Of a stretch of DNA of 64,000 nucleotides, positions 1 through 64,000 are shown in pieces; the first letter of the stretch is position 1, and each line of letters begins with the position of its first letter. The stretch is from Callorhinchus milii (lineage: Eukaryota). Location: the NCBI RefSeq assembly GCF_018977255.1, contig NW_024704742.1:129644001-129708000 (forward strand). The letters are read 5' to 3'. The position numbers and the translations under genes are program-made. The notes below the pieces were generated by a model. The model was given only the letters and a program-made list of their open reading frames with translations, was not told the DNA's origin and ran no database searches.

Positions 1-2132
1 CTGACTGTTTTGTCCACACGAGGTGTGTTTTATGCAATTTTTTTTCATTTGAATGTTGACAACACTTCTCACCCACCTGAGGAGCTGACAGCATCAACCT
101 TCCGGGTTGCAAACTCCACCCTGTGGAGCCATTGCGGGATCTCGGTGTTTTGTTCTGTTTCGATTTGTGGTTCAGAACCCACATCCATACTCTCACTCGG
201 CTCAGCTTTTCCTCACCTTATTGTACGCTCTGTCATTACCTTTCACTCCTCTCCTCCCCCACCGGCTGCCGCGACAGTTGGCCACATCTTTTTCATGTCC
301 TTGCACCTCCTTCATGCCCTTGCACTTCCCTACCTTTCCAACTTGTTCAACCCCCACTCCACCATCCCCTGCTTCCGCTCAACCGGCTCCAGCTTCCTGT
401 TCATCACTCGCCCCCTCAGCTCCACCATCGGCGGCCGTGCTTTCAGTCACTACACCCTAAAGCTCTGGAACTCTCTCCCCCAATTCCTCTGCTTTCGCCC
501 TTCTCGCTCCACTTTCAAATCCCATATAAATACCTTTCTTTTTGATCGTGCTCACAGTCACCTCCCCCGTCCCTCTCCCCCTAGGTCAAGGTCAGACTTC
601 GCCACTGTTAAGCACTCCAGGACCCTATCCCACATGAAGGGCGCTATATAAATGCAAGTTGTTGTTATGTTCAGGCTAAATTAGCCAACTTCCCTACACA
701 GGTGGCAAACTATCCTCTCCCATATCAGGCTCCTTGAGCCTATCACCCCCATCGTTGCTTGGCTCCACTGGTTCCCTATCCCTCAGTGCATCAAGTTCAA
801 GATCCTTGCCCTCACATTTAAATTCCTCCAAGGAGGGTGAAGATCATGGGTTGCGATTGCAACAGTTCAGTGCTTTGAGACATCCTCCTGACTATATAAT
901 TGTAACTTGTATTGTTTAATATAATAATTTAAGTATCTGAGGTTCGGTTAAGTAGAAAAATAATACTGGCATTTGATAATGCGCCTTATTGCACCTTCAA
1001 AACACTTCACAGGATTTACTGTGGAGGAAGGGTCTCCAACCGGGCAATCGCCACTGGGTGGTGCTGTTACACATGATCAAAAAGATAAGAGGAAGGAGCC
1101 ATAGAACTGTATGCTTATTTTGTCCAGTTGTAAATGAAACCTGAGGCCCAAAGTATTTCATGCATCTGGAAATAAAAATGCAAACTTTAATGTTAAAACT
1201 GCGGCAAATATTGCTCCTTTATCTTGTTTTGTTGAGCATGTGCGAGATGCCCCCGAGCAGTGATAGACTGGTTGGAGACCCCTGCTCTAGAATGTAGTGA
1301 CTGTGCATTGAGTTGGCAAATGCAGCAGCCAATTTGCAGATAGCAATGACCCACAAACCGCCGTTAAGTGATTGAGTTATAGAGAATATCGTGATTTCAA
1401 TTCCAGGGAGTGGCGGGGGGGGTGGGGAAGGAGGGCGAAGATCAAGTTCCAGAATGGGGTGGAGGAGATTGTGATTTGAGATGAAGGAGGTGGGTGGGAA
1501 GGATCAGAGCTTGAGTTACGTGGGGGACAAATGATCACAATCTCATTGCTGGGGAGGGAAGAGAATCTCCGGGGGAATCCTAGTTTGAATTTGGTGGAGG
1601 GAACTTTTGATAGACCTTGTGTAAGATGGGTTTTCCAATTATAAACGCACTTCATCAAAAGTCCCGTAGCGTAGTTGTCAGAGCATTCACCTTGCAAGCA
1701 AGGGGACCCAGATTCAATTCTCGGGCGGAGCAAGTTTCCTTACTGCACAGGTCTCTGTTTACCTAGCAGTAAGTAGGAACACGGTTGTTAGTCAACTGGC
1801 AGATTGCTTTCCAGGGATAATAATACCTCAAAAAAAAATTTGGTCAATCAATCCACGATTGGATGTGGGACACTGCAGTGCGAAATTGGCTGTGTGTTTC
1901 GCCCATGAAATATATAGGTACACAGTCAATCCACTTTACAATATATTTGTGAAGCACTTGGAGACATCTCAACAATGTGATAAGATGCTATATCAAATGC
2001 AAGGATTATTATTATTATTATTACCATAACGTTAGTTAAGAATGCAAAGATAACCCTTGGTGACTCCTTACATGTGAACAGGAAACACTGGAAGGTATTG
2101 ACATTTCGGTGTTCTGGAGCTGGTGTGTAGAG

Positions 2133-29149: not shown

Positions 29150-29185
<36 letters not shown>

Positions 29186-40359: not shown

Positions 40360-41493
40360 TTAAGGCCCACGGGATTAATGGGAACATATTAGCATGGATT
40401 GAAGAGTGGATAACAGGTAGAAAACAGAGAGTAGGGATAAACGGGTCATTCTCGAATTGGCAGGATGTGACTAGTGGAGTGCCACAAGGATTAGTGTTTG
40501 GGACTCAGCTATTTACAATTTACATCAATGATCTAGACGAGGACATTGAATGTAACATATCTAAATTCACGGATGACACTAACCGAGGTGGGAGAGTAAG
40601 CTCTGAGGATGATGCAAAAAGATTGCAGCGGGATATAGATAGGCTCGGGGAGTGGGCGAGTCGGTGGCAGATGGAATTTAATGTGGGGAAGTGTGAAGTT
40701 ATTCACCTAGGTAGAAAAAATAGAAAAACAGATTATTTTCTAGAGGGAGAGATTAGATAGTGTTAGTGTGCAGAGGGATTTGGGTGTCCTTGTACACCAG
40801 TCTCAAAAAGTTAGTTTGCAGGTGCAGCAATCAACTAAGAAGGCGAACGGCATGTTAGCGTTCATTGCAAAAGGTTTAGAGTACAAGAGTAGGGAAGTCT
40901 TGCTGCAACTGTATAGAGCCTTGGTAAGACCGCACCTAGAGTATTGTGTGCAGTTTTGGTCTCATTTAAAAAAAGACATACTTGCCCTAGAGGGGGTGCA
41001 GCGTAGATTCACTCGGTTAGTTCCTGGGATGAGGGGACTGATGTATGAGGATAGGCTGAATAAACTAGGGCTGTATTCTCCAGAGTACAGAAGAGTTAGG
41101 GGAGATCTTATTGAAACATATAAGATTCTTAAAGGACTGGATAAAGTAGAGGGTCTATTTCCCCTGGTAGGAGAATCTATAACCAGGGGTCACAGTCTTT
41201 AAAATTAAGGGTCAGCCTTTTAGAACAGAGTTGAGGAAACATTTCTTCACTCAGAGGGTAGTGAATTTATGGAATTCACTACCCCAGAAGGCTGTAGATG
41301 CTCAGTCCTTGAACATCTTCAAGGCTGAGACTGATAGATTTTTAAAAAAACAGAGGGATTAGGGGATATGGGGATAGGGCAGGTAATTAGAGTTAGGTCT
41401 GAAGATCAGCCATGATCTTATCGAATGGCGGGGCAGGCTCGAGGGGCCGAATGGCCTACTCCTGCTCCTAATTCTTATGTTCTTATGTTCTTA
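40360..41493 (+). mobile_element. CR1-type LINE 3' fragment (reverse transcriptase, with an in-frame stop)
   Basis: VTSGVPQGLVFG...FTIYINDLD...KFTDDT and LYRALVRPHLEYCVQFWS, with a (ttcttatg)n tail. Confidence 0.93.
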
Positions 41494-46000: not shown

Positions 46001-46669
46001 GTACAGTACCAGAATTCAATACTGCATTGTTTTTATATTACAAAACAAGATAGGTTTGTTGGACTATTTCCTTTAATACAGATTCAAAACAAGATCATTA
46101 TGTGCAAAACATCATGTACAGTACAGATATGCTAATTGGAGTGAATGATTTCTAGCAGTGAGCAGCTTTCTTTTTTTGCACGTGATCGACAATACTCTTT
46201 TGCAAAAATACTGTTGGACACAGTGCTCCCAGCAATTCCTTTACGTCAGAAAATAACTGGAATGAAATCTTCTTTGCAGCAGTATACACGTCTGAAAAGG
46301 TTCAGTGATCCTCAGCTCCCGACTCCCAATCCTCACTGGAAGAAAATTGGTTAAATGGTAACTTTGCGGCAAATCTAAAGTCAGTGGACCCGGGTTTGAT
46401 TCCTGGGCAGGGGGTTTACCCACTACTGTAAAGTCTATCCACTTTACAATACTCCTGAGAAGCTCTTTGAGATGTGTGAACAACATGCAAGGATTATTAT
46501 TATGTCTTGGTGGAAAGAAACTTCTCAATTTCCAGCTTTTCCTTTCTCTCCTTCTACAAAATTAGTGAAATTTTCAATCCATCGTGTCTGTGCTGGCCAG
46601 CTCTCGTCTTAGTACCAATCTCCTGCTGCTTCCTCAAATCCTATCATATTTCTCCCTTTCAGATATTTA

Positions 46670-47000
46670 GAATATAAGTATTTGCTGGGCGAAAGACCGA
46701 GGTCCATTCCGTTTGCCTTCCACCATCCTAGTAGTCGCATACACATGTCATGTCTTAAACTACATACTATATCCCAAGATATTATTTCCTAACAGGAATC
46801 TATCTAATTTGTTCTTGAAATAATTGACACTTGCTGCTTCCACCATCTTTTTAGGGAGCCTGTTGCATACGTTTACTACTCGCTCACTGAAATAGCATTT
46901 CTGCAGATTAGTTCTGAATTTACCCCCAATCAAACACAGACCAGGCCCTCTGGTTCTACTGTTCAGTACAAGATAAACCAGCTTGTCATGGTCTACATTA
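46670..47000 (-). mobile_element. CR1-like LINE 3' fragment
   Basis: Minus-strand RTRG...FSERVVNVCNRLP...SVNYFKNKLDRFL. Confidence 0.7.
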
Positions 47001-47337
47001 TTTAGTTCCTTTAAAGGATTGATCTTATCTATTTGCTTCTTAAAAAAGTTCATATGGATTCTACCTGAACCAGCATCCTCTGTAGAGAATTCCTGATAAC
47101 CCACCTTATGTGAAACACAATTCTTCTAACTCTCCCTTTGTCCTTTTGAGAAGTACCTTAAGTTTTTACCCTCTGGTTACTGACCAACTGGACAATGGAA
47201 ATAATTTCTCCCTGTTTACTTTAGGATTCTCCACATTTGTTGTTAAATTACTCCTGTGTTGGTGCAATCTAAATATTTTGAGATTGGTCCTCGGGTAGAA
47301 TGGCTAAAATACGTTTGATGTTTATTTGACAAACCAT

Positions 47338-47457
47338 TTATTTGTTGTTGTAACACTCTGGTGGGATCGACTGAGGTCTGTAATGCTTTGGCGGTAGTTT
47401 TGGTGGCAGTTCAGACACAGCTTCCTCATCACTATTATGCTCGTCAAAAGATGATTT
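47338..47457 (-). CDS. Myosin candidate terminal exon (KSSFDEHNSDEEAVSELPPKLPPKHYRPQSIPPECYNNK*)
   Basis: Acceptor tacag, a phase 0 open frame of 39 aa, and TAA at 47340-47338. Confidence 0.68.
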   Translation of the reverse strand, partial: KSSFDEHNSDEEAVSELPPKLPPKHYRPQSIPPECYNNK

Positions 47458-48134
47458 CTGTAGACACAAAATATTTACTGTTAAAACAGCCAGAGGTCGA
47501 ACATTCAATTGCAGGAAGCAGCGTCACCACTGCCACAGACACACACACACACACACTAGAGGGTGCTAGAGAGGGATCAGGATCAATAATCTTGGGCTAA
47601 TTTTCCCCTCCCGCAACCTGGGAAGGCTTCGGACCAATTGAGCCTTTCTGTGTGTTCACATGCTGAGATCAGCAAACTCAGCACGGACCGACCCAGTGAA
47701 TTTATTATTTGTGTGTGACGGAGGTGAAGGGCCAAGCCAGATAATGCAGGACGCTGCTAAGGCTGTCAATGGTGTAATGGACTGTATATTGTGGACCAAA
47801 CACAGCTGCCAATGGCACAGCAATGTCCTGCAAACTGCCATGAAGTGAATGATCAAATTGTACGTGGGGAGCTGCAGGCTAGGGCATTTTCCACTCTCTT
47901 TTCAAATAGTGCCATTGGATCTTTAAACATCCACCTGAGCAGGCAGACGGGGCCTCGGTTTTAACATCTCATTCGAAGGACGTCACCTCTGACAATGCAG
48001 CACAGCCCCAGCATTGTACAGTCAGCCTAAACTATATGAGTTCAAAGTCCTAACTGATTAAGACAGGCTGACACCTGAAATACAAGGATTATTATTAACC
48101 TATTTTCACATGACAAGACTAGAGATGCACGTGC

Positions 48135-48485
48135 CTCATAAATTTGCTGAATCTCCCTCATCGCCAAGCGAATTGATGGGTACAGTCTGGGGAACGTGCG
48201 TTTGCTTCCTTGATGTTCTTCCTCAGCCCAGTTCTCAGAATTTGTTCCAGTCGTTTCTTTCGAAGCAGTCTGAAACTTTTTATCCGAGATCTTTTTCAGG
48301 ATCGGAGGCAGTTTGGGTTGCATCGATGCCTGAACCTCGGGAGGCACAAAAAGCTTGGACAGCTCACTGTGCACTCGTGCGTGGCCTGAGAGATTGCCTC
48401 CTGCAGCACAGCTGGCCCCTTCCTCCAGAGACACTTTCCCCAGAAAATTTTTGAGTTCCTCATAGTCGGTCTCTTTGTCACATTT
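48135..48485 (-). CDS. Myosin exon: post-SH2 tail (KCDKETDYEELKNFLG...RLYPSIRLAMREIQQIYE)
   Basis: Acceptor ttcag and a 117-codon open frame. The 3' boundary is inferred as a phase 0 GC donor (GAG|gcacgt). Confidence 0.8.
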
Positions 48486-50628
48486 CTGAAAGGGAAGGGG
48501 AGAGGGAGAGAGAGGAAGAAAAAAAAGCATTGCATTTGTCATCTCACCATCTTCAAACAAGAAAATAATAATACTGTTATAATAATCTTGCATTTGATAT
48601 AGTACCTTATCACACCGTTCAGTCGTCTCAAAGCGCTTCACAGGATATACTGTAAAGTGGAGTGATTGTGTATTTCATGGGCGAAATGCAGCAGCCAATT
48701 GTGTACAGCAATGTCCCACAAACAGTCGTGGAGTGATCAATTTTATTTGGTGGATTGTTGGCCAGGACACTGAGAGAAACTCCCTTCTCTTAACTCTTAA
48801 ACAATGGTACACTGTTGTTCCCAAATTTTTGTTTCTTATTGGGTAACAGACCATTGTACTCCGAACCTGGAGTTTCATAATCAAAAATTGCTGAATCATA
48901 AGCCATAAATTCCACCTAGTCACAGGCTGTGAGTCCATTTAGTCTTTAAATGACTGAGCAAAATTGTGGAAAATTCTTAAATCCAGTCTTCATTTGTAAG
49001 CCGGGTTTCTGCAGGTCATTTTATTTTTTTAAAAAAGAATTGGCTTCTAACTTAAAACTGAATTTAAGATTTAACATCTTCTTTACGTTCTTAAAATGTT
49101 AACGGCAAAATGAGCTTGCAAGTTTCTCTCCCACTCTGCCCCCCACTCCAAATCTCCTTCACGCTCATTTGTGATAGGTTCCTGACTAGCCTGCTAGACG
49201 GAGCATTTCTGTGCAGAACTCCACTAAGGAGGAAACGAAAGACAAACCCAGCAATAGACAGAAGTATAACCAGTAAAGCTGAATACCCCGATGACATGGA
49301 AGAGAAAGACTGGCTCACGTTGCGAATAGAGACGCTGACTGAGCCAATGTGGATTTGCAGCATTTGCAGCTTTTCTTGGGACACTTGGTCCACCTAAGAC
49401 TCAAACAAATATTTAGGAATGTAGCCAATCATTTCAAGAATGTGCCTGTTTGGCCAGTCCTTAATCACCTCAAGCCCGCATACGGCACTTGCTTTGTCGA
49501 GTGAGAAAACGGTTGGATCTAATTATGCGCAGGAAATCTCACTGGTGATTCTTAGTGAAAGGAAGTGCCATCAGTGGCCATTCTTGCTCACAGCACACAT
49601 GTGCAGCATGCAGGAAGTGGCGTCAGTGGCACTTCCTGCGCATAATATGCCAAAGCGCAGGAAGTGACTTGAGCTATGACCCAACAACCTGGAAGCAGAC
49701 CCAGTCGCCACTGTTTCATTGACCAGTTATGAAGCAGTGTCCAAGTTCCAGAGAGTATGTGGCTCCGGTTGGCAAGGCTTCCAACGGCTTGGAACCCCAG
49801 AGCATGCGTTGAGGCCCTGCTGTGATTTAACATAGCCTACCATTGAGAGCACGGTCTGGCGAGGTTCCAGCAGCTTGCCCAACTAGAGCCACCCTGCCCA
49901 TTAGATTTTGCTTGCATAGTTGACAGAAGCTGAACGGGAAGGGTTCCTGCCCCAGTGACCAATCCACCCCTCCAACTTCTACTGATTGGCCAGTCTGGCT
50001 GATCGATCATAAGCATTTAGTTTGTGTTGCTTTATACGGAATAGAAGTTTTCATAAATAAAATATAATCTTCATTAAAATGTGCCACACGTTTAACATTT
50101 ACACAGACACCACTCACGGTTTTGATTTTCAATAAAAGAGATACTGGCATTCAAACCAATGGCTAATAGCCACTTACACAAAGTGCACTTACTCTGCCTC
50201 CATAAAAAAGATATTTCCATTAACAATTACACATCTCTCTTGAGATTGAAACCAATCCTTTCACTATTACCTGAAAATGAGATAATTGAGAGGGGACCTA
50301 ATAGAGGCATTTAAGATTATTTAAAGGATTCAATAAAGTGGAAGTTGATGGACTGTTTCTACTTGTTGATGAGTTCAACACAATGGGGCATAAATACAAG
50401 ATAGCTAGTAACAGATGTAAAAGGGAGTTTAAGAGGGACTTCTCTATCCAGAGAGTGGTAAGAATGTGGATCTAACTGCTAGCAATTGTGGTTAGGACAA
50501 AATGCATCACCAGAATAGAGAGATATGCAAGAATGGAGTAGGAGGCTTGTGTGGGAATAAACACCAGCATGGATTAGTTTGGCTGAATTGACAATGGAGA
50601 GAAGAGAAAAAAATCTAAACGTAAATGA

Positions 50629-50999
50629 ATAATAATAATAAGCCTTGCATTTGATATAGCGCCATATTATGTCTTTGAGATGTCACAAAGTGATTCACAG
50701 AATATACTGTAAAGTGAATTGACTGTATATCTTGTGGCCGAAACGTGACAGCCAATTGCACACAGCAGTGTCCCGCAAACAGTCGTGGATTGAAGTGACC
50801 AATTTATTACTTTTTTTGAAGGAATTATTACCCCTGGAAAAGCGATCCCCCCATTCAACTAACAGCCAGTTCCTACTTATTACTAGGTAAACAGAGACAT
50901 GTGGAGTAAGGAAACTTGCCCAACATTTTGCCCTGCCGGGAATCGAACCCAGGTCTCTCGCTTGTGAGGCGAGTGCTCTAAGCACTGAGCTACAGGACT
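50629..50999 (-). mobile_element. Full-length tRNA-derived SINE (representative of the most abundant family)
   Basis: Same head, core and tail. Other copies lie at ~1663-2022, 5295-5656, 7270-7640, 16330-16705, 19620-19965, 21318-21600, 23706-24045, 25575-26008, 37173-37550, 54902-55207 and 60467-60772. Confidence 0.88.
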
Positions 51000-51168
51000 T
51001 TACTATCAGTGCAAAAATACTGTCACTGCAAAAAAAAGTAATCCATTAAGTTTCAGATAAACACCTTTCCAGTGGCATTCGTTCCAAAAGCATATCAAAC
51101 GTGCAAATAGTTACCGAGATGCACAGATTGAGAGTAATCACACTTTGTTAAGGCAAATGAACTCATAC

Positions 51169-51334
51169 CTGGCCACAAGGAACGGTAAGAACTTCCATGA
51201 ACGGCTGAATCCCAACAGTTTTGTGATACTCCACTAAATCTGGCAGTGATGGATGGGCTCGGTCCTCTCCCAAAATCACATACTTTCCATTCGGTTGCAT
51301 TTCGATCATGTAGTGTCTGCACCGATCTGCGCCA
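51169..51334 (-). CDS. Myosin exon: SH2 C-terminal half (GADRCRHYMIEMQPNGKYVILGEDRAHPSLPDLVEYHKTVGIQPFMEVLTVPCGQ)
   Basis: SH2 motifs CRHY-I, SLxDLVEYH and LxxPC. Boundaries caag and gtatga. Confidence 0.94.
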
Positions 51335-54300
51335 CTTGAGAGATTTGTTTTTAATGGGAAAAAAAAGTGAAAGTTAATTACATTCTTATTTTAAATTATC
51401 GCCTTTTGATCCAAATGTTTTTGCTCCTTCCTACCTTTCCAATCTCCTAATCCCCTACCACCCTGTTCGCTTCCTCCGCTCATGGGCTCCGGCCTGCTTC
51501 ACGCCCCCCACCTTGCTCGCCCCACTATTGGCAGGCGGGCCTTCTGCCACTCTGCACCCACCCTCTGGAACTCCATCCCACAGACTCTCTGCCTCACCCC
51601 CTCCCTCGCCACCTTCAGGACCCACCTCAAGACCCTCCTCTTCGACCGTGCTTTTGATCTCCCTGCTTCCCCCCTGCCCTCCAACCTCCTTCACCCCGAC
51701 CCCCAGCTCGGGTCCATAACTCTGTCTGTCCAGCACCTTGGGATGTCCTCCCGACGTGAAAGGCGCTTTACAAATGTTGTTGTTGTCCAACTGCATTGCA
51801 GACTTCTACACTGTGCACTTACTCTATGCATCTGCCGTTCAGGTCATTTATGAAAAGGATGAGAACTTTCAATAAAAGGTAACTCACACATTGGATCCAT
51901 CAGATAATGAAAGCCAATTTACTGGATAACTATACAGCACATTGAAACCAGGACCAATGTAAAACAACAACAAATGACATTTATATAGCGCCTTTCATGT
52001 GAGGAAGATGTCCCAAGGCGCTGGAGAGTCAGGGATCCACACCCGAGCTGGTGGCTGGGATCAGGAGAGGTGGAGGGCAGGGAAGATAGGGGTAGGAGTG
52101 TGACTGAAAGCGCTGTCGAAGAAGAGGGTCTTGAGAATGGTCTTGAAGGAGGCATGGGAGGGGGCGAGGCAGAGGGACTGTGAGATGGAGTTCCAGAACG
52201 GCAGATAGGCTGAATACTCGCCGGTCAATGGTGGAGCAGGCAAGACAGGGGACATGAAACAAACATTTTAAAAGGCCATTCCCAATTACAAGAAGTTATG
52301 TTACGTGAAGGGTGCCATATGATTGCAAGTTGTTGTACAAAAGTCCCCATGTTCACTCTCCAGTGGCTGAATTATTTCAACACTTCACACAAAGTTATCA
52401 TAAAATATTCTCACGATTCACCAACACTTAAATAAATAACCCTTGCACGTAAAACAACAGCCATACAATGAGACTGTAGAAAAAAAATCAGCAACGCTGA
52501 TTGCACTAGCAAAGGGGGTTCGCGACTTCAGTTATATTTGTACCACTTCATCAGCTCTTACTATCAAATGCGAGGTTTATTATTATTATCCTACCAACAT
52601 TGTTTCCACAAGTGAGAGTAAACCGTGAAACCTCATTGGCCTAGTGATTGGTGGACAAGTACTACAGCAATTCACACAGAGACACAGACACCACTGCAGA
52701 GCTGTTATTTTAACAGTTTCCATGTTACAGGCTGCTCTGTGTGAGATCAATGCGACTTAAAGCAGGAAGTGATAGTTTAAAGTGTCCCGAATAAGGCAAT
52801 GTGTCCACAGTGACAAACAACCTTAAAAAACAATCACCTTCAGGGCAGTTTTCTTTCAGATGCTTTCAATGCGATTCGGGGAGTAAATAATCAGAATAAA
52901 ACTCTGTATCCCCATCACACCAGTCCTTGCCAGGCTCCACTGGTTCCCAATTACTGAATGGAACGATTTCCAGATCCTCTCACTCGTTGTCAAATCCCTT
53001 CATGCCCTCGCCCCACCCTACCTATCCAACCTGCTTACCCCCCACTCCCAAATCGCTCAGCTTCGCTCAGCTGGCTAAGGCCTCGTGTTTGTCCCTCGTC
53101 CCCTCCACCACCAGTGACTGTGCCTTCAGCCACTACGCTCTGAAACTCTGGAACTCTCTCCCTCAATCCCTCCACCTTTCCACCTCCCTCCCCACTTTCA
53201 AATCCTGCCTAAGGACATTCCTTTTTGATTGTGCTTACGGTCATCTCCCCCTTCCCTCTCCCCCTGGCTCAGGGTCAGACTCCCCCACTGTCAAGCTCTC
53301 CAGGAAGCTACCGGTGTGAAGGGCGCTATATAAATGCAAGTTGTTGTATAATAATAATCCTTGCCTTTGGCAGAGCGCCTTTCACATCAGAAGGATGTCT
53401 CAAATAACTTCACATGATATACTGTAAAGTGCATTATCTGTGTGTTTTTGACAGCAGCCAATTTCACACACAGCAATTTTTCACAAACCTCCATGAATTG
53501 AATGCTTAATTCTATTTGGGGGGATGGTGGCCAGGACAGCGGGAGACCCTCCCTTCTCTTTTCGAATAGTGTTATGGGATCTTTAATGTCCACCTGAAGA
53601 AGCAGACGGGGTCTCGGTTTAACTCCCATTCCTTTGAACAGTTTCACACACCCTCTCTTCTGTTTGTCCACCACCTACATCCCCACTTTTCAGAAACTGA
53701 CCCAGTGGGAGGTGACCAGAAGCACGATCGAAGAGGAAGTTCTTCAGGCGGATTTGAAGATGGGAAAGGAGGGGACAAGGTGGAGGATTGAGGGAGAGTG
53801 TTCCAGAGTTTAGAAACAAAGTGCTTGACATAAGAGGTTAAAAAAACAAACCACCGCCTTCGGGATGATGAGGCTGTTAAAAGCACATCAACACTCATCA
53901 ACAACATCAAACTACATTTGTATAGTGCCTTGCACATTGGGAGGAAGTCCCAAAGTTCTGGACAGTCAGGAATTTGGACCCGAGTTGGACATTGGGATCA
54001 GGAGGGTGGAGGACGGGGAGGGTAGGGGTAGGAGGGTGACCAAAAGCCCAGTCTAAGAGGAAGGTTTTGAGATGGGCCTTGAAGGAGGCAAGGGAGGAAG
54101 CGAGGCGAAGGGACTGTGGGATGGAGTTCCAAAGGGTGGGGGCAGAGAAACTGAAGACCCGATAGCTGATGGTGGGGCGGGCTGGATGGAGGACGTGAGC
54201 AGAAGTCTGCTGAGCTCTCACTCACTCACTTTGCTTGTGAGATATTGCAACATAGATATCAAATATGTCAAAGTGTGGCCTGGGCCTATCAACAAAACTG

Positions 54301-55238
54301 AGCCAGCGTGCAGGAGACAGGCTGATAGAAATGTGACGTTACTACATAAAATAATAGCCAATACTGTGGATATGATTTTAGGAATGTGCCCTTTACCCTA
54401 TTGAGCCTGGTTTGAAATCACAGTAGACCACTTTAAACCTCAATTCTTTGTTTGCTGTGCACAAGTGGCTGCCATGTTTCGCCCACAAAATATACAGTCA
54501 ATTCACTTTACAGTATATTCTGTGAAGCACTTTGAGACGTCTCAAAGATGTGATAAGGCGCTATATCAAATACAATTATAATTATTAGTAGTAGTTTTTT
54601 TCCTTACACCTGTTAGGGCAGGTGATGGATTTCACACCACAAGTTAAAAATGAAAGGCGGGTGGGCAGGCATTTATTTACTGACGTGAAATAATACTAAT
54701 CCTTGCATTTGGTATAGCGCTTTTCATGTTAGAACTGGGGCATGTTGGAAGGAGAGGCTTTTAAGGGCTAACAGAGAGGGGGAGGAAGGGCAAAGAAGAC
54801 AAAGGAGAAAATGGGGTAGAGGACAGGGGATGATGAGTTAAAGAGATGTTAACGATGCAACAAAGGGGGGGATTGCAACAAAGCAGGGGAAATAGAGGTG
54901 TTAATAATAATAATCCTTGCATTTGATATGGTGCTTTTCATGTCTTCTCGACGTCTCAAAGTGCTTCACAGAATATACTGTAAAGTGAACTGACTGTATA
55001 TTTGTGGGCGAAATGCAGCAGCCAATTGCGCACAACAGTGTCCCACAAACAGTCGTGGATTGAAGTGATCAATTTATTTTTTTTCTTGAGGGACTATTAT
55101 CAGGAGTGTGGAGTAAGGAAACTTGCCCAAGTTTTCACCCTGCCGGGAATTGAACCCAGATCTCTTGCTTGCGAGGCGAGTGCTCTAACCACTGAGCTAG
55201 AGGACTCCATAGCGTAAAGGTTGAATGGAAGAACTTAC

Positions 55239-55328
55239 CTGAAAGTCAAAGTGTATCCTTCCCTGCTGCCACTGACACGAATGAGGAAGCAGCCAAATAG
55301 TTGATTTGCCAACAAATCTTCAGCTTCC
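55239..55328 (-). CDS. Myosin exon: SH2 core (EAEDLLANQLFGCFLIRVSGSREGYTLTFS)
   Basis: GxFLIRxS phosphotyrosine-binding signature. Boundaries tacag and gtaagt. Confidence 0.94.
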
Positions 55329-55599
55329 CTGTAAACAAAAGCAACATAAAAGCCTATTGTAATCTGGAGGCACAGCTTGCAATAAGGCAGGAAAACAGCT
55401 CTGATCTAAGGAGACGTAGGAAAGGGGAAGATTTAGAAACAGTGTCCATTAACCTCACCTATTCAGCTCCTACACAACCTGCCCTCCTTACAAAGCACTT
55501 ACGCAGTGTTGGGTAATGAAACAGACTATTCAGCCCAACTGCACAATCACTGCATTTTACAGTGTGAAGTCTTCTGAAAGACTTTAAGATTTTATTATC

Positions 55600-57695
55600 A
55601 GAAGATAATCAAATGGAATATAGAAAGTACAGAGGAGAAATGAAAAAGCAAATAATAGGGGCAAAGAGATTGTATGAGAAAAGATTAGGGGTAACAAAAA
55701 AGGGAACCCTAAGGTATTTTATAAGCCTATAAAGAATAAAAGCTTAGTCAAAGGTAGGGTGGAGCCAATCAAGGACCAAAAGGAAATCTTTTTGTGGAGG
55801 CAGAGGGCATGGCTTATGTACTGAATGAATATTTTGCATCTGTCTTCACAAAAGAAGAGCATGCAGCCAATGCCACAGTATCAGAGGAGAGGGTAGAGAA
55901 ATTGGATACGATAAGAATAAACTGAGAGGAGGTACTAAAAAGGTTGTCAGTGCTCAAGGTAAATAAGTCACTCGGTCTGAACTGGATGCATCCTAGGTTA
56001 CTGAGGTAAGTAATGGTGGAAATAGAGGAGGTTCTGGCCACCATCTTTCAATCTTCCTTGGACACCAAGGTAGTGCAGAGGACTGGAGAGTTGCAAATGT
56101 TACTCCCCTGTACAAAAAGGGGCAGAAGGATAAACCTGGGAACTACAGGCCAGTCAGCCTAACATCAGTAGTGCGGAAACTTCTAGAGACTCTAATCCGA
56201 GACAGAATAAATTTTCATTTAGAAAGATATATGGGTTAATAAAGGACAGCCAACACGGATTTGTTAAAAGCAAATCATATCTAACAAATATGATAGAGAT
56301 TTTTGATGAAGTAACGGAGAGGGTGGATGAAGGTAGTGCAGTTGATGTAGTTTATGTGGATTTTCAAAAGGCGTTTGATAAAATGCCACATACGAGACTT
56401 GTAAGCAAAATAGAAGCCCTTGGTATTAAAGGGACAGTGGCAGCATGGATACAGAACTGGCTGGGAGACAGAAAGCAAAGAGTGGTGGTGAACAGTTGTT
56501 TTTCTGACTGGAAGGAAGTGTGCAGTGGTGTCCCCCAGGGATCGGTATTGGGACCACTGCTGTTTTTGATCTATATAACTGACCTGAACTTGGGTATAGG
56601 GAGTACAATTTCCAAGTTTGCAGATGACACTAAGCTAGGAAAACAGTGAGGAGGATAGTAACAGACTGCAAATGGACAGACTGGTGAAATGGGCAGACAG
56701 GTGGCAGATAAGGTTTAATGTGGAGAAATGCGAAGTGATGCATTTTGGGAGGAAGAATGAGGAGAGGCCATATAAGCTGATGGTACAATCTTAAAGTGGG
56801 TGAAGGAACAGAGAGACCTGGGGGTTCATATAAGTAAATCGTTGAAGCTTATAAAACACTGGTTAGGCCTCAGCGAGAGACTGTGTTCAGTTCTGGGCAC
56901 CACACTTTAAGAAGGATGTCAAGGCATTGGAGATTTACCAGGATGGTACCAGGAATGAGGGACTTCAGTTATCAGGAGAGGCTAGAGAAGCGAGAATTAT
57001 ACTCCTTGGAGCAGAGAAGGTTGAGAGGAGACTTAATAGAAGTTTTCAAAATTATGAGGGGATTCGATAGGGTGAACAAGGAGAAACTATGGGTGGGTCG
57101 GTAACCCTGGAACACCGATTTAAAATAGTTGTTAAAAGAAACAGAGGGGTGGTGAGGAGAATTTTTTTCAACAACAACTTAGATTTATATAGCGCCCTCC
57201 ACGCCGGACGGCGTCTCAGAGCGCTTTACAGCAACGGATCCTGAGACCGAGCCGGGGGGGGGGAAGATAACCAAAGGCGCAGTCGAAAAGAAAGGTCTTC
57301 AGCAGAGACCTGAAAATAGGAAGGGACGGAGTGAGGCGAAGGGAGAAAGCAAGGGAGTTCCAGAGCCTCTGGGCATAGTGGCTGAAGACACGGCCGCCGA
57401 GGGTGGAGCAGAGGATTCAGGGGACGAGGAGGAACAAAGGCAACGGATACTGTTTTGAGGAGAGAGGAGGTCAGAGAGTTTCACACAGCAAGTTGTTTGG
57501 ATCTGGAATGCATTGCCTGAAAGGGTGGTGGAAGCCGATTCGATAACAACTTTTAGGAGAGAAGTAGATAATTATTTGGGGAGAACAAGGTTGCAGGGCT
57601 CTGGGGTGAGTGCGGGGGAGTGGGAATCAATTGGATAGCTCTTTCCAAAGAGCCGGCACAGACATGATTGGCCGAATGGCTGTATAATTCTATGA
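55600..57695 (+). mobile_element. Degenerate CR1-type LINE (ORF2 RT region to 3' end) in a myosin intron, with a nested antisense L2 fragment at ~57170-57480
   Basis: [36 protein letters not shown] and KFADDTKL motifs with frameshifts. Confidence 0.92.
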
Positions 57696-58691
57696 ACTTC
57701 CAATGTGAAAGGCGATTATATCAAATGCAATGATTATCATTAATAATAATAATATTATGTATAATAATTAATCCATGTTGATATTTATGCTCCACGTGAC
57801 TTCACACCTCATATTCCCCCCCACCTACACCCACTCAGCCACCTCTGAATAAGTGCCTGGGAACAAGCCAATAGCCAACCTTAAATTATGATGTGAATAG
57901 TAATGGAGGAAGGGGGTGAGGGGGAGAGAGGAAAGAGAGGATAACAGAGAACCCAAGAACAAAACAACAGCAATGAAATTACATTTGTATAGCGCCTTTC
58001 GCTTTGAGAGGATGTCCCAAGGCACTGGACAACAACAACTTGTGTGGAGAGAGGCGGAGGATCAAAGAAAGGTGAGGGTAAAAATGTGAAACACGAATAA
58101 AACATAGATTAATACCCTCAACCATTTTAGAGTCGGGTTTTAAACTCAGATTAGAAAGATAATATTAATAATATTAATTAATAATATTTCTAAGTCTACC
58201 AAGACCTACACAGGATCAAGCTCTCCAGGACACTGCCCCACAAAAAGGGTGCTATATAAACACAAGTTGCTGTTGTTGAAGTGTAGCAACCTGTGTATTT
58301 TTGTGGGCAAAGGCGGTAGCCAATTTGCACAGCAATGTCCTGCCACGAAGTGAACGAACAATAATATGTGGTGGTGTTGGGTTTGTGGATGTCCTCCCGA
58401 CGTGAAAGGCGCTGTAAGATACAATTTGTTATTGTTGTTGTGGAGTTTGGTGTGGGAGAGGACAGGGTTCTGGATGGTCCGAAGCTTATGTAGGGAGGAG
58501 CTTAGGACTACACCAAGAATGACAACCACTTTGGGGTGGGGATTGGGGAGAAGAAAGAGGTTGACACTAGAGACCTGTTGATGGCAATGGAATCTCGCAT
58601 AATGAAAATCAAAGCTGCTCGAGAGAGAGGAGCTGGGGAGAAACCTGAAATAAAAAACACACACAGACACTGGAATTAAAACCAGGCTCAC

Positions 58692-58879
58692 CGCCTTGTA
58701 ATCATCCCATGGAACCAGGAGGGAAAAGTGCCGTTCTGAACGACTTTGCGAGCCTGAGTCTCGTTGAACCATCGAATCGTAGCTCTCTTCTTCAGAACAC
58801 GCTGCTCCTCGACCTCCTGCAGGCTGACCTGTGACAAACTACTGGCTATGTGGTCCCGCGGGTTGTCAAAGGGAGTTGC
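58692..58879 (-). CDS. Myosin exon: pre-SH2 helix and SH2 start (ATPFDNPR...IRWFNETQARKVVQNGTFPSWFHGMITRR)
   Basis: WFHGxIxR SH2 start, preceded by the WFxETQ motif seen in the SH2D7/HSH2D/SH2D2A-type SH2 subfamily. Boundaries ttcag and gtgagc. Confidence 0.93.
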
Positions 58880-61031
58880 CTGAAGGAAATAAACAGCGAA
58901 TTGTAGCAAACACGAAGGTCCCTCTGGCTGTGCGTTCAGTACAATTTACGTTTATGTAATGCTTATCCATCCCCGAATCCCTCCGCTTCGTCCCCTCCCT
59001 CACCTCCCTCAAGGCCTGTGTAAAGACCTTCCTCTTCCACCGTGCCTTCAGCCACCCCCACCACCCCTACCGATTATCCCCTCTTGATTCCAACCCCCAG
59101 CTTAGGGTGCAAACCTTTAACTGTCCAGCACCTTGGGTTGTCCTACAGCTGCTGTACAAATATATTTTGTTGTTGTTTTGTTTCCTGCTGTGAAGATGTT
59201 TCAAAACACTGGCTGGGAATAATGTGAGACCCCTGGAGGTGGGGGGGCCACAGTGGGGTAAAAAGATGACCAAAAACATGGTCAAAGACGCAAATCTTAG
59301 GCTGGCTTTGAAAGTGTGCGTGTGTAAGGGGGAGTGCGGGGGTGGGGGATGATTGGGGGCAAGTTGGAGGGCTTCCCAAAGAGTGACGGCAGAATGGCTG
59401 AACTCTAGCCCATCCACCATTGGGCGTATCGAGCGGGGGTAATGAAGCTGACCAGTGTTTGTTGAGTGCAGGGAGTGGCCGGGTCAGTGGGGTGACAGGA
59501 GGTGGCAGAACTGGATGAGGGCGAGGCCTTGGAGGGAATCTGAGGGTGAAATTAAAGGCGTGTTGAAAACAGGATTTTCTCATTACAAAACCATCACTAT
59601 GTCTGAGGAAGAAATGTGACAGCTGGGGGTGAGGCAGTCAGGCAACTCTCCATTTATACAGTACCTTTCCCCATGGAAACCCCTTTCACATCTTTAAGCA
59701 CTTTTACAGAATGATTTTAAATTAACGGAGTTAGGAAAAGTCAACAGTGGGGGTAGGAAGTGACCATCTGGGACTGGTTTGCTCAGCTTTGCTAAATCAC
59801 AGGTGCCTGGTTTGTTTTGTTTTAAAACAGCCGCAGGAAAAGTGACGTTAGTAGTTGAAGCAACATTAGAAGATTCCTGTGGGCTGAGGTCAGAACACAG
59901 CCTCGGGACAGCCTTTGCACTGACTTACACAGCTGCTGAAGGCATAAAAGTGACTGAATGATTTCAACAACCGAGGTTGCTCAATTCTCTAGTGATTCCA
60001 GCTCTTTCCTCTTCCTGATGTGACCGCATCAACTCTCGGCCACTCACAACATTGAGGCGGGTGGGCTTTAGCAAGGCTAGAAACCCAGGGACTCGCAAGG
60101 TCACAATGCTTGCACAGTGGAGGGACTTAGAAAAACACTCAGATTAAAACCAGCCACGGTTTAGATCCAACTGGGCTGAAAGGTCACTGTCTGGATCACA
60201 GAAAGGTGAGTTTTAAAGCAGGGCTTTTTCCATTACAAGTCTGGAAAAGTTTAACAGCGACCAGGCAGCTGCTATTAATACAGCACCCTTCCCATGAAAG
60301 AAACCTCTTAATACAGCGCTTTAGAGAATGAGATTAATTGGGAATCAGATGCACGAGTGGCCAGATTTTACAAATTCTTAAATGCAGCCCTAACAGAGAA
60401 AATTCCCCATCATGCAAGTACTAGATCTCCTTCCCTCTCTTTTCCCACCCTCCATAGAAACCTATAATAATAATAATCCTTGCATTTGATATAGCGCTTG
60501 AGATGTCTCAAAGCGCTTCACAGAATATATTGTAAAGTGTATTTTGTGGACAAAACGCGGCAGCCAATTGTGCACAGCAGTGTCCCACAAACAGTCATGG
60601 ATTGACTGACCACATTTTTTTGTAGAAGGATTACTAACTACGTAAAAGCAATCTGCAAATCGACTAATAACCGGGTTCCTACTTACTGTTAGGTAAACAG
60701 AGGTGTGTGGAGTAAGTAAACTTGTTTAAGATTTGGCCCTGCCCAGGAATCAAACCTGGGTGCTCTCGCTTGCTTCTATAACACAGAAGGAGACCTTTCA
60801 GTCCATCGTCCCTGTGCTGGATCTTTTAAGAGCAATTCTTACAGACCCATTTACCTGCCCTTTCCCTCTGCCCCCGTAGTAGAACACTCACCACCACACA
60901 AGCTGTAACCCTCCCCACGACCACACAGGACTGAGAAGCTAAAGGACAGGATAATTAGATATTTAAGTGTGGAGAGAACGGACTTTTTTTTTGTTAAAGA
61001 CACAACAAATGGATTAGGAAAAGATACGCAC

Positions 61032-61162
61032 CTCCAATAACTTACTCCGGGGTCTGGGAACCGGAGGCTGCACCTCCGTGCGGAACTTGTCCACTGCTAG
61101 AGAACGAGGTCGAGGCTGGGGCTTCCTTTTTCTTGGAAGGGGAACTGGAGGAGTCACTGGAC
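61032..61162 (-). CDS. Myosin exon: proline-rich linker (PVTPPVPLPRKRKPQPRPRS...PPVPRPRSKLLE)
   Basis: Acceptor tgcag and donor gtgcgt, phase 1 to 0, open frame. Confidence 0.82.
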
Positions 61163-61378
61163 CTGCAACAGAACAAACGTTTGAAAAAGTATCAGCCGAG
61201 TGTCAGCCTGGCTCAGCCAGTCAAACTCTGGCCTTCGAGTCAGACAGTTGTGGGTTTGTTACCATCACAGTTTGGTTTGTTGCAACCGTTTGATTAGTCA
61301 ACAACTGGATCAATAACATCCGCGCCTTGTGTGAGAGAGATAGAGAGAGAGATGGTAAAGATGACTGGGATCACCTAC

Positions 61379-61537
61379 TTTCATTTTCCAATTCCGTTTC
61401 CATTTCCTGTTTCCTCTTCCTCTCCATTTCCTGTTCTAATTCAACCTGTCGTTTTTCTTCCTCCTGCCTCTCCAGCTGCCGCCGCATCTCAGCCACCAAG
61501 GCTCTGTACTTGCTCTGGCAGCGATATTGTTTATAGG
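61379..61537 (-). CDS. Myosin exon: rest of IQ motif and E/K/R-rich helix (TYKQYRCQSKYRALVAEMRRQLERQEEEKRQ...ENE)
   Basis: Completes the IQ-like IQKTYKQYRCQSKY, followed by a charged helical stretch. The donor gtaggt was chosen because its phase fits the next exon. Confidence 0.88.
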
Positions 61538-62557
61538 CTGAAAAATACACAGACACAAATACACAAGAGATGGTCAAATAGACCAATTCCATCCTACCAA
61601 AAGGTTAATTTTTGCATGGTTGATAGTTTTAGATGTTCGATGCAACAACTTGGTAGTACTCTTGCCTCTGGGTTTAAGGTTGTGTTCAATGACAGGGGTT
61701 TTGAGCTCACCAGTCCAGGCTGTTAATCCAGTACAGTACTGGGGGAGTGCTACATTTTCAGATGAGGTGTTAAACCCATGACTGATTCCAAAAGGGAAAG
61801 TCAGTCCTAGGCAACAATCATCCAGATAAATAGCTCATTCGTTCTATGGCTGTTTGTGAGACTTTGCTATGTGCAAACTGGCTGCCACACCTGGTAATAA
61901 TCCTTGCATTTGATTTTTTATCACATTGAAACTTCTCAAAGATCTTCAGTTTTTATTCCCCTGCAAAGTCCATTGACTGTGTATGTGTAAGCAAAGGTGG
62001 AGTCGGTTTGTACACAGCAGTTTTCCACAAACAGCCACAAAATGAATGATTTGTGTTTATTTAGGGAATGTTTGACAAAATTGATGTCCAGTGGCAATCG
62101 TGGATGTCAGGACACAGGCTGTCAACCAACCACCCCACCCTCACCATGACTGCAAGTATTTGAGATATTAAAGAGGAGAGAAAATACAATTCCATTTAAA
62201 TTTATACAGCACCTTTCACATTGGAAGGATGTCTCAAGTCTCTTCACAGTGCTGGATGGGCATCAGAGCTGAGGGTGGGAGCCGAGGGGAGGGGAAAGGG
62301 TGATCAAGGAGATAAATTTCGAGATGTGCCTTGAAATAGGGGATGGTGCGAGCGAATCAGAGGGACTCCAGGACGGAGTTCCACAGGACAGGGCAAAATG
62401 GCTGAAAGCCCGGATATTGGTGGTGGGGCAGGTAGGGCAGGGTTATGGTGGGGACATGAAGCAAGCCAAATAGCAAAATGCCCTCAAAACACACAAAATC
62501 TAGTGAACCAGACCCATAGAGCAAGTAGAATAATCATGACCAATTGTTGGCACTCAC

Positions 62558-62649
62558 TTTTCTGGATGATTATTGCAGCCTTATCAAGCCTTTCTATGCA
62601 CTTTGCCAATTGATCTTGATGCCAATATTTAAAGAACAGGCGAGTCTTT
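62558..62649 (-). CDS. Myosin exon: end of motor and start of IQ motif (KTRLFFKYWHQDQLAKCIERLDKAAIIIQK)
   Basis: GKTxxFxKYWH converter signature plus AAIIIQK. Boundaries cacag and gtgagt. Confidence 0.93.
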
Positions 62650-63243
62650 CTGTGAGGGAAAAAATGAACAGATCAGTTCACTTAAACGTCAATGGTAATA
62701 AAGTTGTGAATCAACCAGTTGTTAATCCTAGGTCCCACTAAATTTAGACAGCAGTATTGTAAACTCCCAGCAACGGCAGATGGTAGTTGGTAGTTCTAAC
62801 ACTGCATTATGTTAGAATGCATTGGCTAACCTTACACTATAAAAGATGCACAATACACAGTGAACAATGAGATTTTACAGACCAATACCCCAGTGAATTA
62901 AACACTCTGCGACATTTGACCCTCTTGGTCTCAAACGATTAGCAAAGTTCCCTGCACCGCTATCATTTATTTCTACAGTAATCTGGACAGTATTTTGCTT
63001 GGGTATGTACCAACAGACTGTGGACAACAACAATAAAACAATTGTCATTAGGAAAGTATCTATTGCATATTTGGCACAAGACAAGAGCCAGCTCTAAAGG
63101 AAAAGGAAACAAAGAGACTTAATCTTAATTATGCAAGTCCACTGCTGATATAACGAAGTCAAAATGAAATGTGCACAAATCTTGACTGCACGTCACTCAC
63201 TACTGGTCTCAGTAATACTAGCCCTGGATCCATTTTGACTTAC

Positions 63244-63291
63244 CCACACTTCCAGTCCTTCAGGTCTGTGGTTTGGAGAAGAGCTAGGCAA
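63244..63291 (-). CDS. Class XXVIII-type (SH2-tail) myosin, motor/converter exon (CLALLQTTDLKDWKCG)
   Basis: Boundaries cgtag and gtaagt. It joins the next exon to give WKCGKTRLFFK, the myosin converter GKTKVF motif. The rest of the motor domain lies beyond the window. Confidence 0.85.
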
Positions 63292-64000
63292 CTACGAAAA
63301 ACAGAGAAGGATAATCTTAATTACACGCGTCAGCAGTGAACACTGCATTTCTTCAGAGACTAAAGTGCATTTTGTGTTCATTTTGTGCTAATTTCCCTTT
63401 TAAAGTCTTACAAGTAATTTCTCCTTTAGAAAAAAAACACATGGGACATTACCACAAAACAAAATGTGCTCATATGAGCAATTTTAATCCAAATAGGACT
63501 GCAGTTTGAGGAGTTAAAAGTTGATGGCTAGTGCAAATGATTCCATTTAGTTGCGGAAACTGGCATTGGAAGTCATATTCAGGCTGTGCTGATGCAAGTA
63601 AATGTTTATCAGGCCAGAGAATGCAAACTAAATTCCAACTCAGGTGCCTAAGGCATAGGATAACACATCAACTTTACAACAATCTCTGCTGCAATGGGAG
63701 ACACAGTGCACCACAAGGTAGAAACTAAATGGACTGTATTTTGAGAGAACAAATCAATGGAGGAATGGTAGAACAAAGAGAAAAAGTGAAAGAGGAGAAA
63801 AATGCTGTTGTTCAAAAATAACCTTTAATGTTCAAAAGCAAACTTATTTTCGATTCTACTTTTTGAAAAAATATTCAATGGCTCCATGTAAAAAGGAGCT
63901 GTGCATCCGATTACTGCTTTGTTTAGTTTAGGAGGCTTACAGCTCACATCACACTTGTAAATCTTATTTCATTAAATCATTTTTTTTAAAAAAAAATTTA

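What the first reader, a model, noticed from the sequence alone, without database searches (positions are those of the whole stretch)
47338..63291. Myosin with an SH2 tail (class XXVIII architecture), a little-studied motor absent from mammals
Seen: nine phase-consistent exons give converter (WKCGKTRLFFKYWH), one IQ motif, a charged helix, a Pro-rich linker, an SH2 domain with intact FLIR arginine and a ~155 aa tail. Established knowledge: IQ + short coiled coil + SH2 defines class XXVIII myosins, described in fish, birds and some invertebrates but not mammals. I know of no functional characterisation. Inference: an actin motor recruited directly to phosphotyrosine cargo. The ORF track shows only fragments, so the gene could easily be mis-annotated as a stand-alone SH2 adaptor or a myosin-III-like gene.
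Basis: partly seen in the sequence, partly recalled or inferred. Interest (0 to 1): 0.7.

Follow-up and report, generated by a model that had tools for sequence, protein, structure and literature searches.

The report
Elephant shark class-28 myosin tail
This is the real, spliced rear half of the elephant shark gene for myosin-28, an already catalogued but apparently untested actin motor whose tail carries a phosphotyrosine-binding (SH2) domain and two conserved motifs that could switch it on and off.

Summary
Observation confirmed. Nine minus-strand exons (63291-47338) give 447 aa, 446 identical to the C-terminal part of Callorhinchus milii 'myosin-IIIb-like X2' (motor plus SH2, no kinase). 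RNA-type contigs of 4 of 4 runs show introns 3, 6, 7 and 8, the last a GC-AG intron; one contig runs from the second IQ exon through the SH2 to the stop. The motor exons lie outside the window. The gene is already curated as ClmMyo28 (PMC5378345, S1 Table), and its motor falls outside class III and XVI. So: known class, known gene; I found no functional study in ten paper searches. Additions: the 'coiled coil' looks like a borderline single alpha-helix; the SH2 is of the TSAd/ALX type with an intact pocket; an acidic tyrosine motif (DYEEL) follows it from invertebrates to sharks; a C-terminal helix is kept from hagfish to birds and may fold back on the head (weak model support). Best reading: a monomeric, tail-inhibited motor recruited by tyrosine phosphorylation (inferred). 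Boldest reading: TSAd-family adaptors are motorless copies of this tail (suggestive; AU p 0.095). The scan's notes held nothing similar.

The parts
63244..63291 (-). Exon 1 in window (48 nt): end of motor domain, start of converter motif
   Evidence: 100% to P0004 657-673; AG/GT ends; joint not listed
62558..62649 (-). Exon 2 (92 nt): converter and first half of the single IQ motif
   Evidence: Gln702 invariant in 45 of 45 rows
61379..61537 (-). Exon 3 (159 nt): second half of IQ and the E/R/K-rich helix (61490-61380), borderline single alpha-helix
61032..61162 (-). Exon 4 (131 nt): Pro-rich linker with two PPVPxPR motifs (61151-61125, 61067-61041), candidate SH3 ligands
   Evidence: SH3 binding is inference
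58692..58879 (-). Exon 5 (188 nt): linker, pre-SH2 helix with WFxETQ motif (58783-58754), start of SH2
55239..55328 (-). Exon 6 (90 nt): SH2 alphaA-betaC, FLIR arginine (55288-55277)
   Evidence: Pfam SH2 E 0.0011; Arg882 45 of 45; joint to exon 7 in 4 of 4 runs
51169..51334 (-). Exon 7 (166 nt): SH2 betaD to end
   Evidence: Pfam SH2 E 0.00031; best solved relative HSH2D 2cs0
48135..48485 (-). Exon 8 (351 nt), GC donor: DYEEL motif (48470-48453), disordered spacer, conserved C-terminal helix motif (48194-48144)
   Evidence: (GC-AG joint in 4 of 4 runs)
47338..47457 (-). Exon 9 coding part (120 nt with stop): acidic and Pro-rich end
47325..47337 (-). Probable splice donor 3 nt after the stop (47335/47334): a further non-coding exon lies downstream; candidate acceptor 46336
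   Evidence: records of 3 runs stop at 47335 and go on for 276-416 letters; GT follows; acceptor not tested

Best explanation
The stretch is the 3' half of the single elephant-shark myosin-28 gene (1106 aa in RefSeq, mislabelled myosin-IIIb-like). SHOWN: exon structure, splicing from exon 3 to 9, class membership, no kinase domain, conserved motor motifs in the database protein, intact SH2 pocket. INFERRED mechanism: a single-headed actin motor with one light-chain site and a lever extended by a charged single helix; at rest the conserved C-terminal helix folds back on the head/neck and holds it off; tyrosine-kinase signalling recruits it through the SH2 to a phosphorylated receptor or adaptor, while the Pro-rich linker binds SH3 proteins and the DYEEL tyrosine, once phosphorylated, docks a second SH2 (a Src-type kinase or another myosin-28). 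It then tethers or moves a signalling complex on cortical actin or in actin protrusions. Odds: identity as Myo28 about 0.97; SH2 binds phosphotyrosine about 0.85; monomer with single-helix lever about 0.6; DYEEL is a used phosphosite about 0.5; head-tail inhibition about 0.4.
For: Identity; P0004 has Myosin_head 9-680 and SH2 857-932, no kinase. Motor tree (40 rows, IQ-TREE LG+G4): query in a 100/100 vertebrate plus hagfish clade; class III 100/100, ankyrin class XVI 100/100 and MH2/chitin-synthase myosins form a separate 95/95 clade; forcing it with class III gives p-AU 0.041. P-loop, switch I, switch II present; Glu at the TEDS site in 45 of 45 rows (rule recalled). SH2: Arg864 (alphaA2), Arg882 (betaB5), His902 (betaD4) each 45 of 45, Tyr903 41 of 45, the residues named as key in PMC9783222 (passages). 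Neck: 56% charged over 43 aa, one helix 681-749 in the model, SAH score 0.299 for this gene and 0.62 for zebrafish. DYEEL: Asp, Tyr, Leu each 43 of 45; fits the pY-acidic-acidic-hydrophobic motif of Src-group SH2s (Table 2 passage). C-terminal helix: eight positions 37-40 of 45, present in hagfish, pLDDT 73-80 inside a disordered tail. Complex model of this helix with head plus SH2: weak support, score 0.36, best of 3 controls 0.03 (the control that replaced the motor); runs agree in at least 76% of contacts, partner pLDDT at least 56; the mark was reached by 51 of 78 solved and 2 of 108 mismatched pairs, but at 0.60 or under by only 5 of 78 solved complexes and by all 4 mismatches that passed (of 180).
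Against: No experiment on any myosin-28 was found; every mechanistic step is inferred. The motor exons are outside the window, so motor integrity rests on a database model (P0004). The SAH score of this gene is close to the 0.25 threshold and 21% of the neck is hydrophobic, so a short coiled coil, as in the class definition, is not excluded. The DYEEL pattern was matched in 84 of 120 hits; 26 differ (14 begin with Val and look like read-through or exon-skipping models, but three bird proteins lack the Tyr), 7 had no recognisable SH2 end and 3 stop there. BetaD6 is Met, not Lys, and the nearest solved SH2, HSH2D, is filed as pY-x-N, not pYEEL, which argues against self-binding. The wider animal clade of SH2 myosins has only 92/67 support. 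A complex score of 0.36 is, by the tool's own counts, more often wrong than right, and the alignment was not used.
Confidence: 0.6

Rival explanations
1. Constitutive two-headed transporter: the charged helix is a true short coiled coil, as in the class definition, and the SH2 only selects cargo.
For: PMC2375034 calls the region a short coiled coil; 21% hydrophobic residues and a borderline SAH score in this species; invertebrate members are less charged (28-45%).
Against: Zebrafish Myo28 scores 0.62 as SAH and minnow, trout and Capsaspora members are listed too; neck length and sequence vary among orthologues.
Confidence: 0.2
2. Phospho-triggered self-dimer: the SH2 of one molecule binds the phosphorylated DYEEL of another, STAT-like (analogy recalled), making a processive motor only while the kinase is active.
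For: The Tyr motif sits at a near-fixed distance of about 7-10 residues behind the SH2 in sponge-like, mollusc, crinoid, acorn worm, hagfish and jawed-vertebrate members; 43 of 45 rows.
Against: HSH2D-type SH2 is filed as pY-x-N; Tyr lost in three bird proteins; not modelled here.
Confidence: 0.15
3. The SH2 exons form a separate motorless adaptor gene or main isoform, and the motor link is an annotation artefact.
For: Several databases hold short SH2-only models of this locus in birds and fish; introns 1 and 2 are not among the listed joints.
Against: X4 record 13 joins exon 3 to the SH2 and has 265 more letters upstream; five Logan proteins of 1075-1136 aa on contigs of 3.3-3.9 kb, too short for introns, carry motor plus SH2 (P0007, P0033, P0037, P0056, P0112); frame is continuous.
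Confidence: 0.03
4. A class III myosin that lost its kinase, as the RefSeq name implies.
For: Database names; 42-45% motor identity to vertebrate MYO3A/B; PMC3942036 places SH2 myosins of unicellular holozoans in a broad 'myosin III-like' group.
Against: Class III is a 100/100 clade without it; p-AU 0.041; fish, frogs and birds carry two MYO3 genes besides Myo28; curated as Myo28.
Confidence: 0.02

Closest known systems
Class XXVIII (class-28) myosins, Odronitz and Kollmar 2007 (PMC2375034); this gene is ClmMyo28 of CyMoBase (PMC5378345 S1 Table) and RefSeq XP_007895376.1 'myosin-IIIb-like X2'
   Same: Same gene: 446 of 447 residues, same numbering of the charged stretch; IQ, charged helix, SH2; no N-terminal kinase.
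   Different: Only allele-level: two residues shorter, one substitution. The DYEEL motif, the C-terminal helix and the SH2 subfamily are not mentioned in the passages I saw.
Class III myosins (MYO3A, MYO3B)
   Same: Among the nearest motor classes, 42-45% identity over the motor; source of the database name.
   Different: No kinase domain, one IQ, SH2 tail; separate clade.
SH2D2 adaptor family: SH2D2A/TSAd, HSH2D/ALX, SH2D7 (grouped in PMC9783222 Table 1)
   Same: Closest SH2 type: HSH2D 2cs0 is the best solved match (96.7 bits, next SYK 78.4); bird SH2D2A is 48-50% identical over 114-117 columns and shares the pre-SH2 WFxQTQ/WFxETQ helix.
   Different: They have no motor, IQ or charged helix; bird SH2D2A lacks DYEEL at that place, though it has tyrosine motifs further on.
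SAH-lever myosins of classes VI and X (PMC5378345); tail-inhibited myosin VIIa (recalled)
   Same: Works-like models for a monomer with a charged single-helix lever, switched on by cargo.
   Different: Other motor classes and cargo domains; the helix here is short and borderline.

Membership tests
Class XXVIII myosin | Tail with one IQ motif | tested here: met
   IQ-like motif across exons 2/3, Gln702 in 45 of 45 rows; degenerate: no Pfam IQ hit on P0004, E 1.7e-05 on the goose orthologue
Class XXVIII myosin | Short coiled-coil region after the IQ | tested here: inconclusive
   A charged helix is there; scored as borderline SAH for this gene in PMC5378345 S1 Table; oligomeric state untested
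Class XXVIII myosin | SH2 domain in the tail | tested here: met
   Pfam SH2 E 7e-17 on P0004 857-932; exons 6 and 7
Class XXVIII myosin | Motor groups with class-28 motors, apart from classes III and XVI | tested here: met
   Tested on database protein P0004, as the motor is outside the window. No founding sequence (Nematostella, Xenopus tropicalis) was in my tree; the link to the class name is the curated label ClmMyo28 and shared motifs with XtMyo28
Class XXVIII myosin | Motor/IQ exons and SH2 exons on one transcript | tested here: met
   Exon 3 (second IQ half) to stop on one contig; introns 1-2 not displayed; intronless-length Logan contigs of relatives carry both
Class XXVIII myosin | Match to the CDD model MYSc_Myo28 (name recalled) | not testable with these tools
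Class III myosin | [quoted passage not shown] | tested here: not met
   Motor starts at residue 9; no kinase family in Pfam scan of P0002-P0005, P0012, P0094
Class III myosin | Motor inside the class III clade | tested here: not met
   (p-AU 0.041)
Class XVI myosin | N-terminal ankyrin repeats and motor clade | tested here: not met
   No ankyrin hit; ankyrin myosins form their own 100/100 clade
Canonical phosphotyrosine-binding SH2 | Arg betaB5, Arg alphaA2, His betaD4 | tested here: met
   Each 45 of 45 rows; betaD6 is Met in 42 of 45
Canonical phosphotyrosine-binding SH2 | Binding to a phosphopeptide | not testable with these tools
   Needs an assay
SH2D2 adaptor family (TSAd, ALX, SH2D7) | Stand-alone adaptor without motor | tested here: not met
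   Spliced to the IQ exon; motor upstream; only the SH2 module is of this type

The most novel reading that the evidence does not exclude
The TSAd/ALX/SH2D7 adaptors of vertebrate immune and vascular signalling are motorless duplicates of the myosin-28 tail, and myosin-28 is the ancestral motor-bearing form: a tyrosine-kinase-switched motor (SH2, conserved DYEEL, fold-back helix) that mammals lost while keeping its headless paralogues. For: bird SH2D2A groups with vertebrate Myo28 SH2 domains to the exclusion of invertebrate ones (97/96); the gene lies next to RGP1, which by recall maps to human 9p13, the one of the four 1q/9/15q/19p paralogous regions with no SH2D2 member (positions recalled, not tested). 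Against: p-AU 0.095 does not reject a separate origin; 119 columns only; hagfish is a long branch; HSH2D, SH2D7 and SH2D4 were not in the tree; HSH2D scores higher with the acorn-worm SH2 (115.5 bits) than with the shark one (96.7). Liu et al. 2011 (PMC4255630), not held, may already discuss this.
Probability: 0.3. Interest if true: 0.6.

Novelty: already known. Interest (0 to 1): 0.33.

Why it matters
The class and this very gene are catalogued, so it is no discovery. It stays of some interest because it is a roughly holozoan-old myosin class, present in zebrafish, frog and chicken, for which my searches found no functional work, and because databases hide it under myosin-III, myosin-VIIa or kinase names. 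A motor that reads phosphotyrosine directly would be a short link between tyrosine kinases and actin transport. The analysis gives three point targets (SH2 Arg882, Tyr958, C-terminal helix) and a testable origin for a family of T-cell adaptors.

Tried and rejected
No whole genome was held, so the upstream motor exons could not be read from this assembly. Other donors for exon 8 (GT sites at 48131, 48100, 48075) were dropped once contigs showed the GC donor at 48135. The two UniProt models P0002 and P0003 read into introns of this window and were not used as the reference. The run search listed no holder on record as RNA; four guessed-RNA runs of 13 listed were laid. PDB has no class-28 motor among the best 60 of 257 matches; top hits are myosin XV, VIIa, X. 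ESM Atlas on residues 948-1106 gave one lead at 0.76, an SH2 cluster, below the 0.9 mark; Pfam gave nothing credible for exons 8-9. Comparing HSH2D scores for shark and acorn-worm SH2 went against the simple expectation of the novel case. A survey's zero for white shark Myo28 is contradicted by P0005 (86% motor identity, SH2), so its zeros for mammals and Anolis are not proof. No fold search and no mixture-model tree were run. Paper searches for functional work or for the SH2D2 link found classification papers only; the library lacks most subscription journals. Scan notes: none by sequence, eight unrelated myosin notes by words.
Full report
Observation. The finding lies on the minus strand. 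Nine exons with AG acceptors and GT donors (one GC) join to an open frame of 447 aa: 63291-63244, 62649-62558, 61537-61379, 61162-61032, 58879-58692, 55328-55239, 51334-51169, 48485-48135, 47457-47338. A search with exon 7 alone returned 177 proteins, 120 listed; three Callorhinchus milii 'myosin-IIIb-like' proteins match it at 100%. The model is identical at 446 of 447 residues to P0004 (XP_007895376.1, 1106 aa) residues 658-1106, lacking two residues at 725-726. P0004 1-656 has no hit better than E 1.2 in the window: the motor exons lie beyond base 64000, and no genome was held.

Splicing. Of 13 runs listed, none is on record as RNA; I laid four guessed-RNA runs from three studies on 46500-64000. 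Joints for introns 3, 6, 7 and 8 appear in 4 of 4 runs, intron 8 with GC-AG ends. Records of three runs bridge intron 4. X4 record 13 (1889 nt) holds exons 3, 4, 5, 7, 8, 9 in order, with an 89-letter gap that fits exon 6 and 265 letters before exon 3. Introns 1 and 2 are not among the listed joints (768 not shown). Records of three runs stop at 47335, three bases after the stop, and go on for 276-416 letters; a GT follows there, so a non-coding exon probably lies downstream. Five Logan proteins of 1075-1136 aa on 3.3-3.9 kb contigs carry motor and SH2 together in relatives.

Identity. P0004 has Myosin_head 9-680 and SH2 857-932 and no kinase. PMC2375034 (passages) defines class XXVIII by an IQ, a short coiled coil and an SH2, in Nematostella, Xenopus, chicken and some fishes; its supplement shows XtMyo28 with the same converter, Pro-rich, SH2 and end motifs (passages). 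The S1 Table of PMC5378345 (21 of 24 Myo28 rows seen) lists ClmMyo28_fl with the charged stretch of exon 3 at 730..744, and that stretch starts at 730 in P0004. The gene is therefore already curated as Myo28. PMC5583752 (passages) extends the class to Capsaspora; PMC3942036 (passages) treats SH2 myosins of unicellular holozoans within a 'myosin III-like' group and notes the link to tyrosine kinase signalling.

Motor tree. I took motors: 65 rows for a fast tree and 40 of them for IQ-TREE, LG+G4, 681 columns. The query sits in a 100/100 clade of jawed vertebrates plus hagfish; crinoid, acorn worm, molluscs and a probable sponge protein, all with SH2, join it at 92/67 (not starred). Class III (100/100), ankyrin-bearing class XVI (100/100) and MH2/chitin-synthase myosins (100/99) form a separate 95/95 clade. 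Holding the six vertebrate SH2 myosins with class III costs 39.5 log units, p-AU 0.041. Names of the unnamed rows come, domains. No founding class-28 sequence was in the tree, and no mixture model was used.

Range. Named hits include sharks, rays, sturgeons, gar, bowfin, many teleosts, coelacanth, birds, alligator, turtles, newt, frog, hagfish, crinoid, acorn worm, argonaut and pearl oyster. No mammal is named among 120 listed of 177 hits or 47 hits. Table S7 of PMC13520260 (read) gives 0 for human, panda and Anolis and 1 for frog, duck, finch, turtle, zebrafish and lamprey; its 0 for the white shark is contradicted by P0005, so such zeros are fallible.

Anatomy. In a 45-row alignment (38 jawed vertebrates, hagfish, 6 others) the P-loop, switch I and II are invariant or nearly so, and the TEDS position is Glu in 45 of 45 (rule recalled), which fits an active motor. 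The AlphaFold model (mean pLDDT 72) has one helix from 681 to 749 through converter, IQ and charged region, a disordered Pro-rich linker, a helix 819-848 before the SH2, the SH2, and a disordered tail with one confident helix, 1053-1074. The charged region is 56% E/K/R/D and 21% hydrophobic over 43 aa; its published SAH score is 0.29-0.30 against a threshold of 0.25, zebrafish 0.62: a borderline single helix, not a proven coiled coil. The SH2 keeps Arg alphaA2, Arg betaB5 and His betaD4 in 45 of 45 rows, Tyr betaD5 in 41, but Met at betaD6 (roles from PMC9783222 passages). Its best solved relative is HSH2D (2cs0, 96.7 bits; next SYK 78.4).

Two tail motifs that I did not see mentioned in the passages read. 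(1) DYEEL, about eight residues behind the SH2: Asp, Tyr and Leu each in 43 of 45 rows, and a matching motif in invertebrate members. Among the 120 listed hits, 84 match the pattern, 26 do not (14 start with Val and look like read-through or skipping models; five keep the Tyr with another neighbour; three bird proteins lack the Tyr; four are unrelated sequence), 7 had no recognisable SH2 end and 3 stop there; the pattern occurs in 80 of 6823 tiled windows of the same proteins, a count that includes the true sites. It fits the Src-group SH2 motif. (2) The C-terminal helix motif, 37-40 of 45 at eight positions and present in hagfish; its Tyr is His in five rows. A three-chain model (head and IQ, SH2, this helix) gave weak support: 0.36, best of three controls 0.03, that control being the one with the motor replaced; contacts agree to at least 76%, partner pLDDT at least 56. 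The mark was reached by 51 of 78 solved and 2 of 108 mismatched pairs, but at 0.60 or under by only 5 of 78 solved and by all 4 passing mismatches of 180; on eukaryotes 39 of 65 and 2 of 126. It is a lead only.

Mechanism. Most likely a single-headed, tail-inhibited motor that is recruited through its SH2 to tyrosine-phosphorylated partners, binds SH3 proteins through the Pro-rich linker and offers its own phosphotyrosine as a docking site, so tethering or moving signalling complexes on actin. Gene structure, class and intact pocket are shown; monomer state, fold-back, phosphorylation and cargo are inferred. Rivals: a constitutive coiled-coil dimer (0.2), a phospho-triggered self-dimer (0.15), a separate adaptor gene (0.03), a kinase-less class III (0.02).

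Evolutionary lead. In a 31-row SH2 tree (119 columns) six SH2D2A sequences, five from named birds, group with vertebrate Myo28 to the exclusion of invertebrate Myo28 (97/96); keeping all animal myosin SH2s together is not rejected (p-AU 0.095). HSH2D scores higher with the acorn-worm than with the shark SH2 (115.5 against 96.7 bits), which does not help the idea. The downstream neighbour is RGP1 (three Pfam hits of 30 frames scanned), and a bichir model fuses FAM221 in front of the myosin; by recall both point to human 9p13 and to the 1q/9/15q/19p paralogon that holds SH2D2A, SH2D7 and HSH2D. PMC3922782 (passages) only confirms that TSAd and ALX are homologues; PMC13005343 (passages) was not relevant; PMC4255630 was not held and may bear on this. 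Supplements of PMC3942036 were not read, and only one supplement file of PMC5583752 was held.

Verdict. Real, spliced, already known gene of a known class; function untested as far as ten searches show (listings only, apart from the papers named above). Interest 0.33; novel case 0.3 likely, 0.6 if true.

Noticed in passing
window 34517-38248 (+): RGP1 gene exons, tail to tail with the myosin: Pfam Rgp1 hits at 34517-34846, 36212-36574, 36734-37003; the frame at 37970-38245 looks like the last coding exon (by recall, no Pfam hit).
   Followed up: partly
window 18022-18957 (+): An EGF-CFC (Cripto/Cryptic type) gene: EGF exon 18022-18162 and CFC exon 18781-18957 (E 3.1e-13); a possible last exon near 19951-20199.
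   Followed up: partly
window 48135/47457: Intron 8 is GC-AG, seen in 4 of 4 runs; one UniProt model (P0003) reads through it.
   Followed up: yes
window 47335-46336 (-): Probable intron in the 3' UTR starting three bases after the stop; candidate acceptor at 46336 and ATTAAA at 46077.
   Followed up: partly
window about 26900-29600: Long purine/pyrimidine-biased low-complexity array (GA-rich on +) next to a GC-rich stretch upstream of the RGP1 exons.
   Followed up: no
window 55700-57200, 40200-41200, 46760-47125: Broken LINE-like reverse-transcriptase fragments (family by recall CR1-type), one inside intron 5; about 38% of the window matches itself elsewhere.
   Followed up: no
window 48395, 55298, 61478: Exonic variants in the contigs (48395 in two runs restores the P0004 residue; 55298 in three runs); the window allele is also 6 nt shorter than P0004 in exon 3.
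   Followed up: partly
P0030, P0121, P0279: Database models that fuse this myosin with neighbours (FAM221 and Kunitz in bichir; anoctamin in pearl oyster; fucosyltransferase in an unnamed protein), probably prediction artefacts but useful as synteny hints.
   Followed up: no
P0005: The white shark has a clear Myo28 (86% motor identity, SH2) although a 2026 survey scores it as absent.
   Followed up: yes
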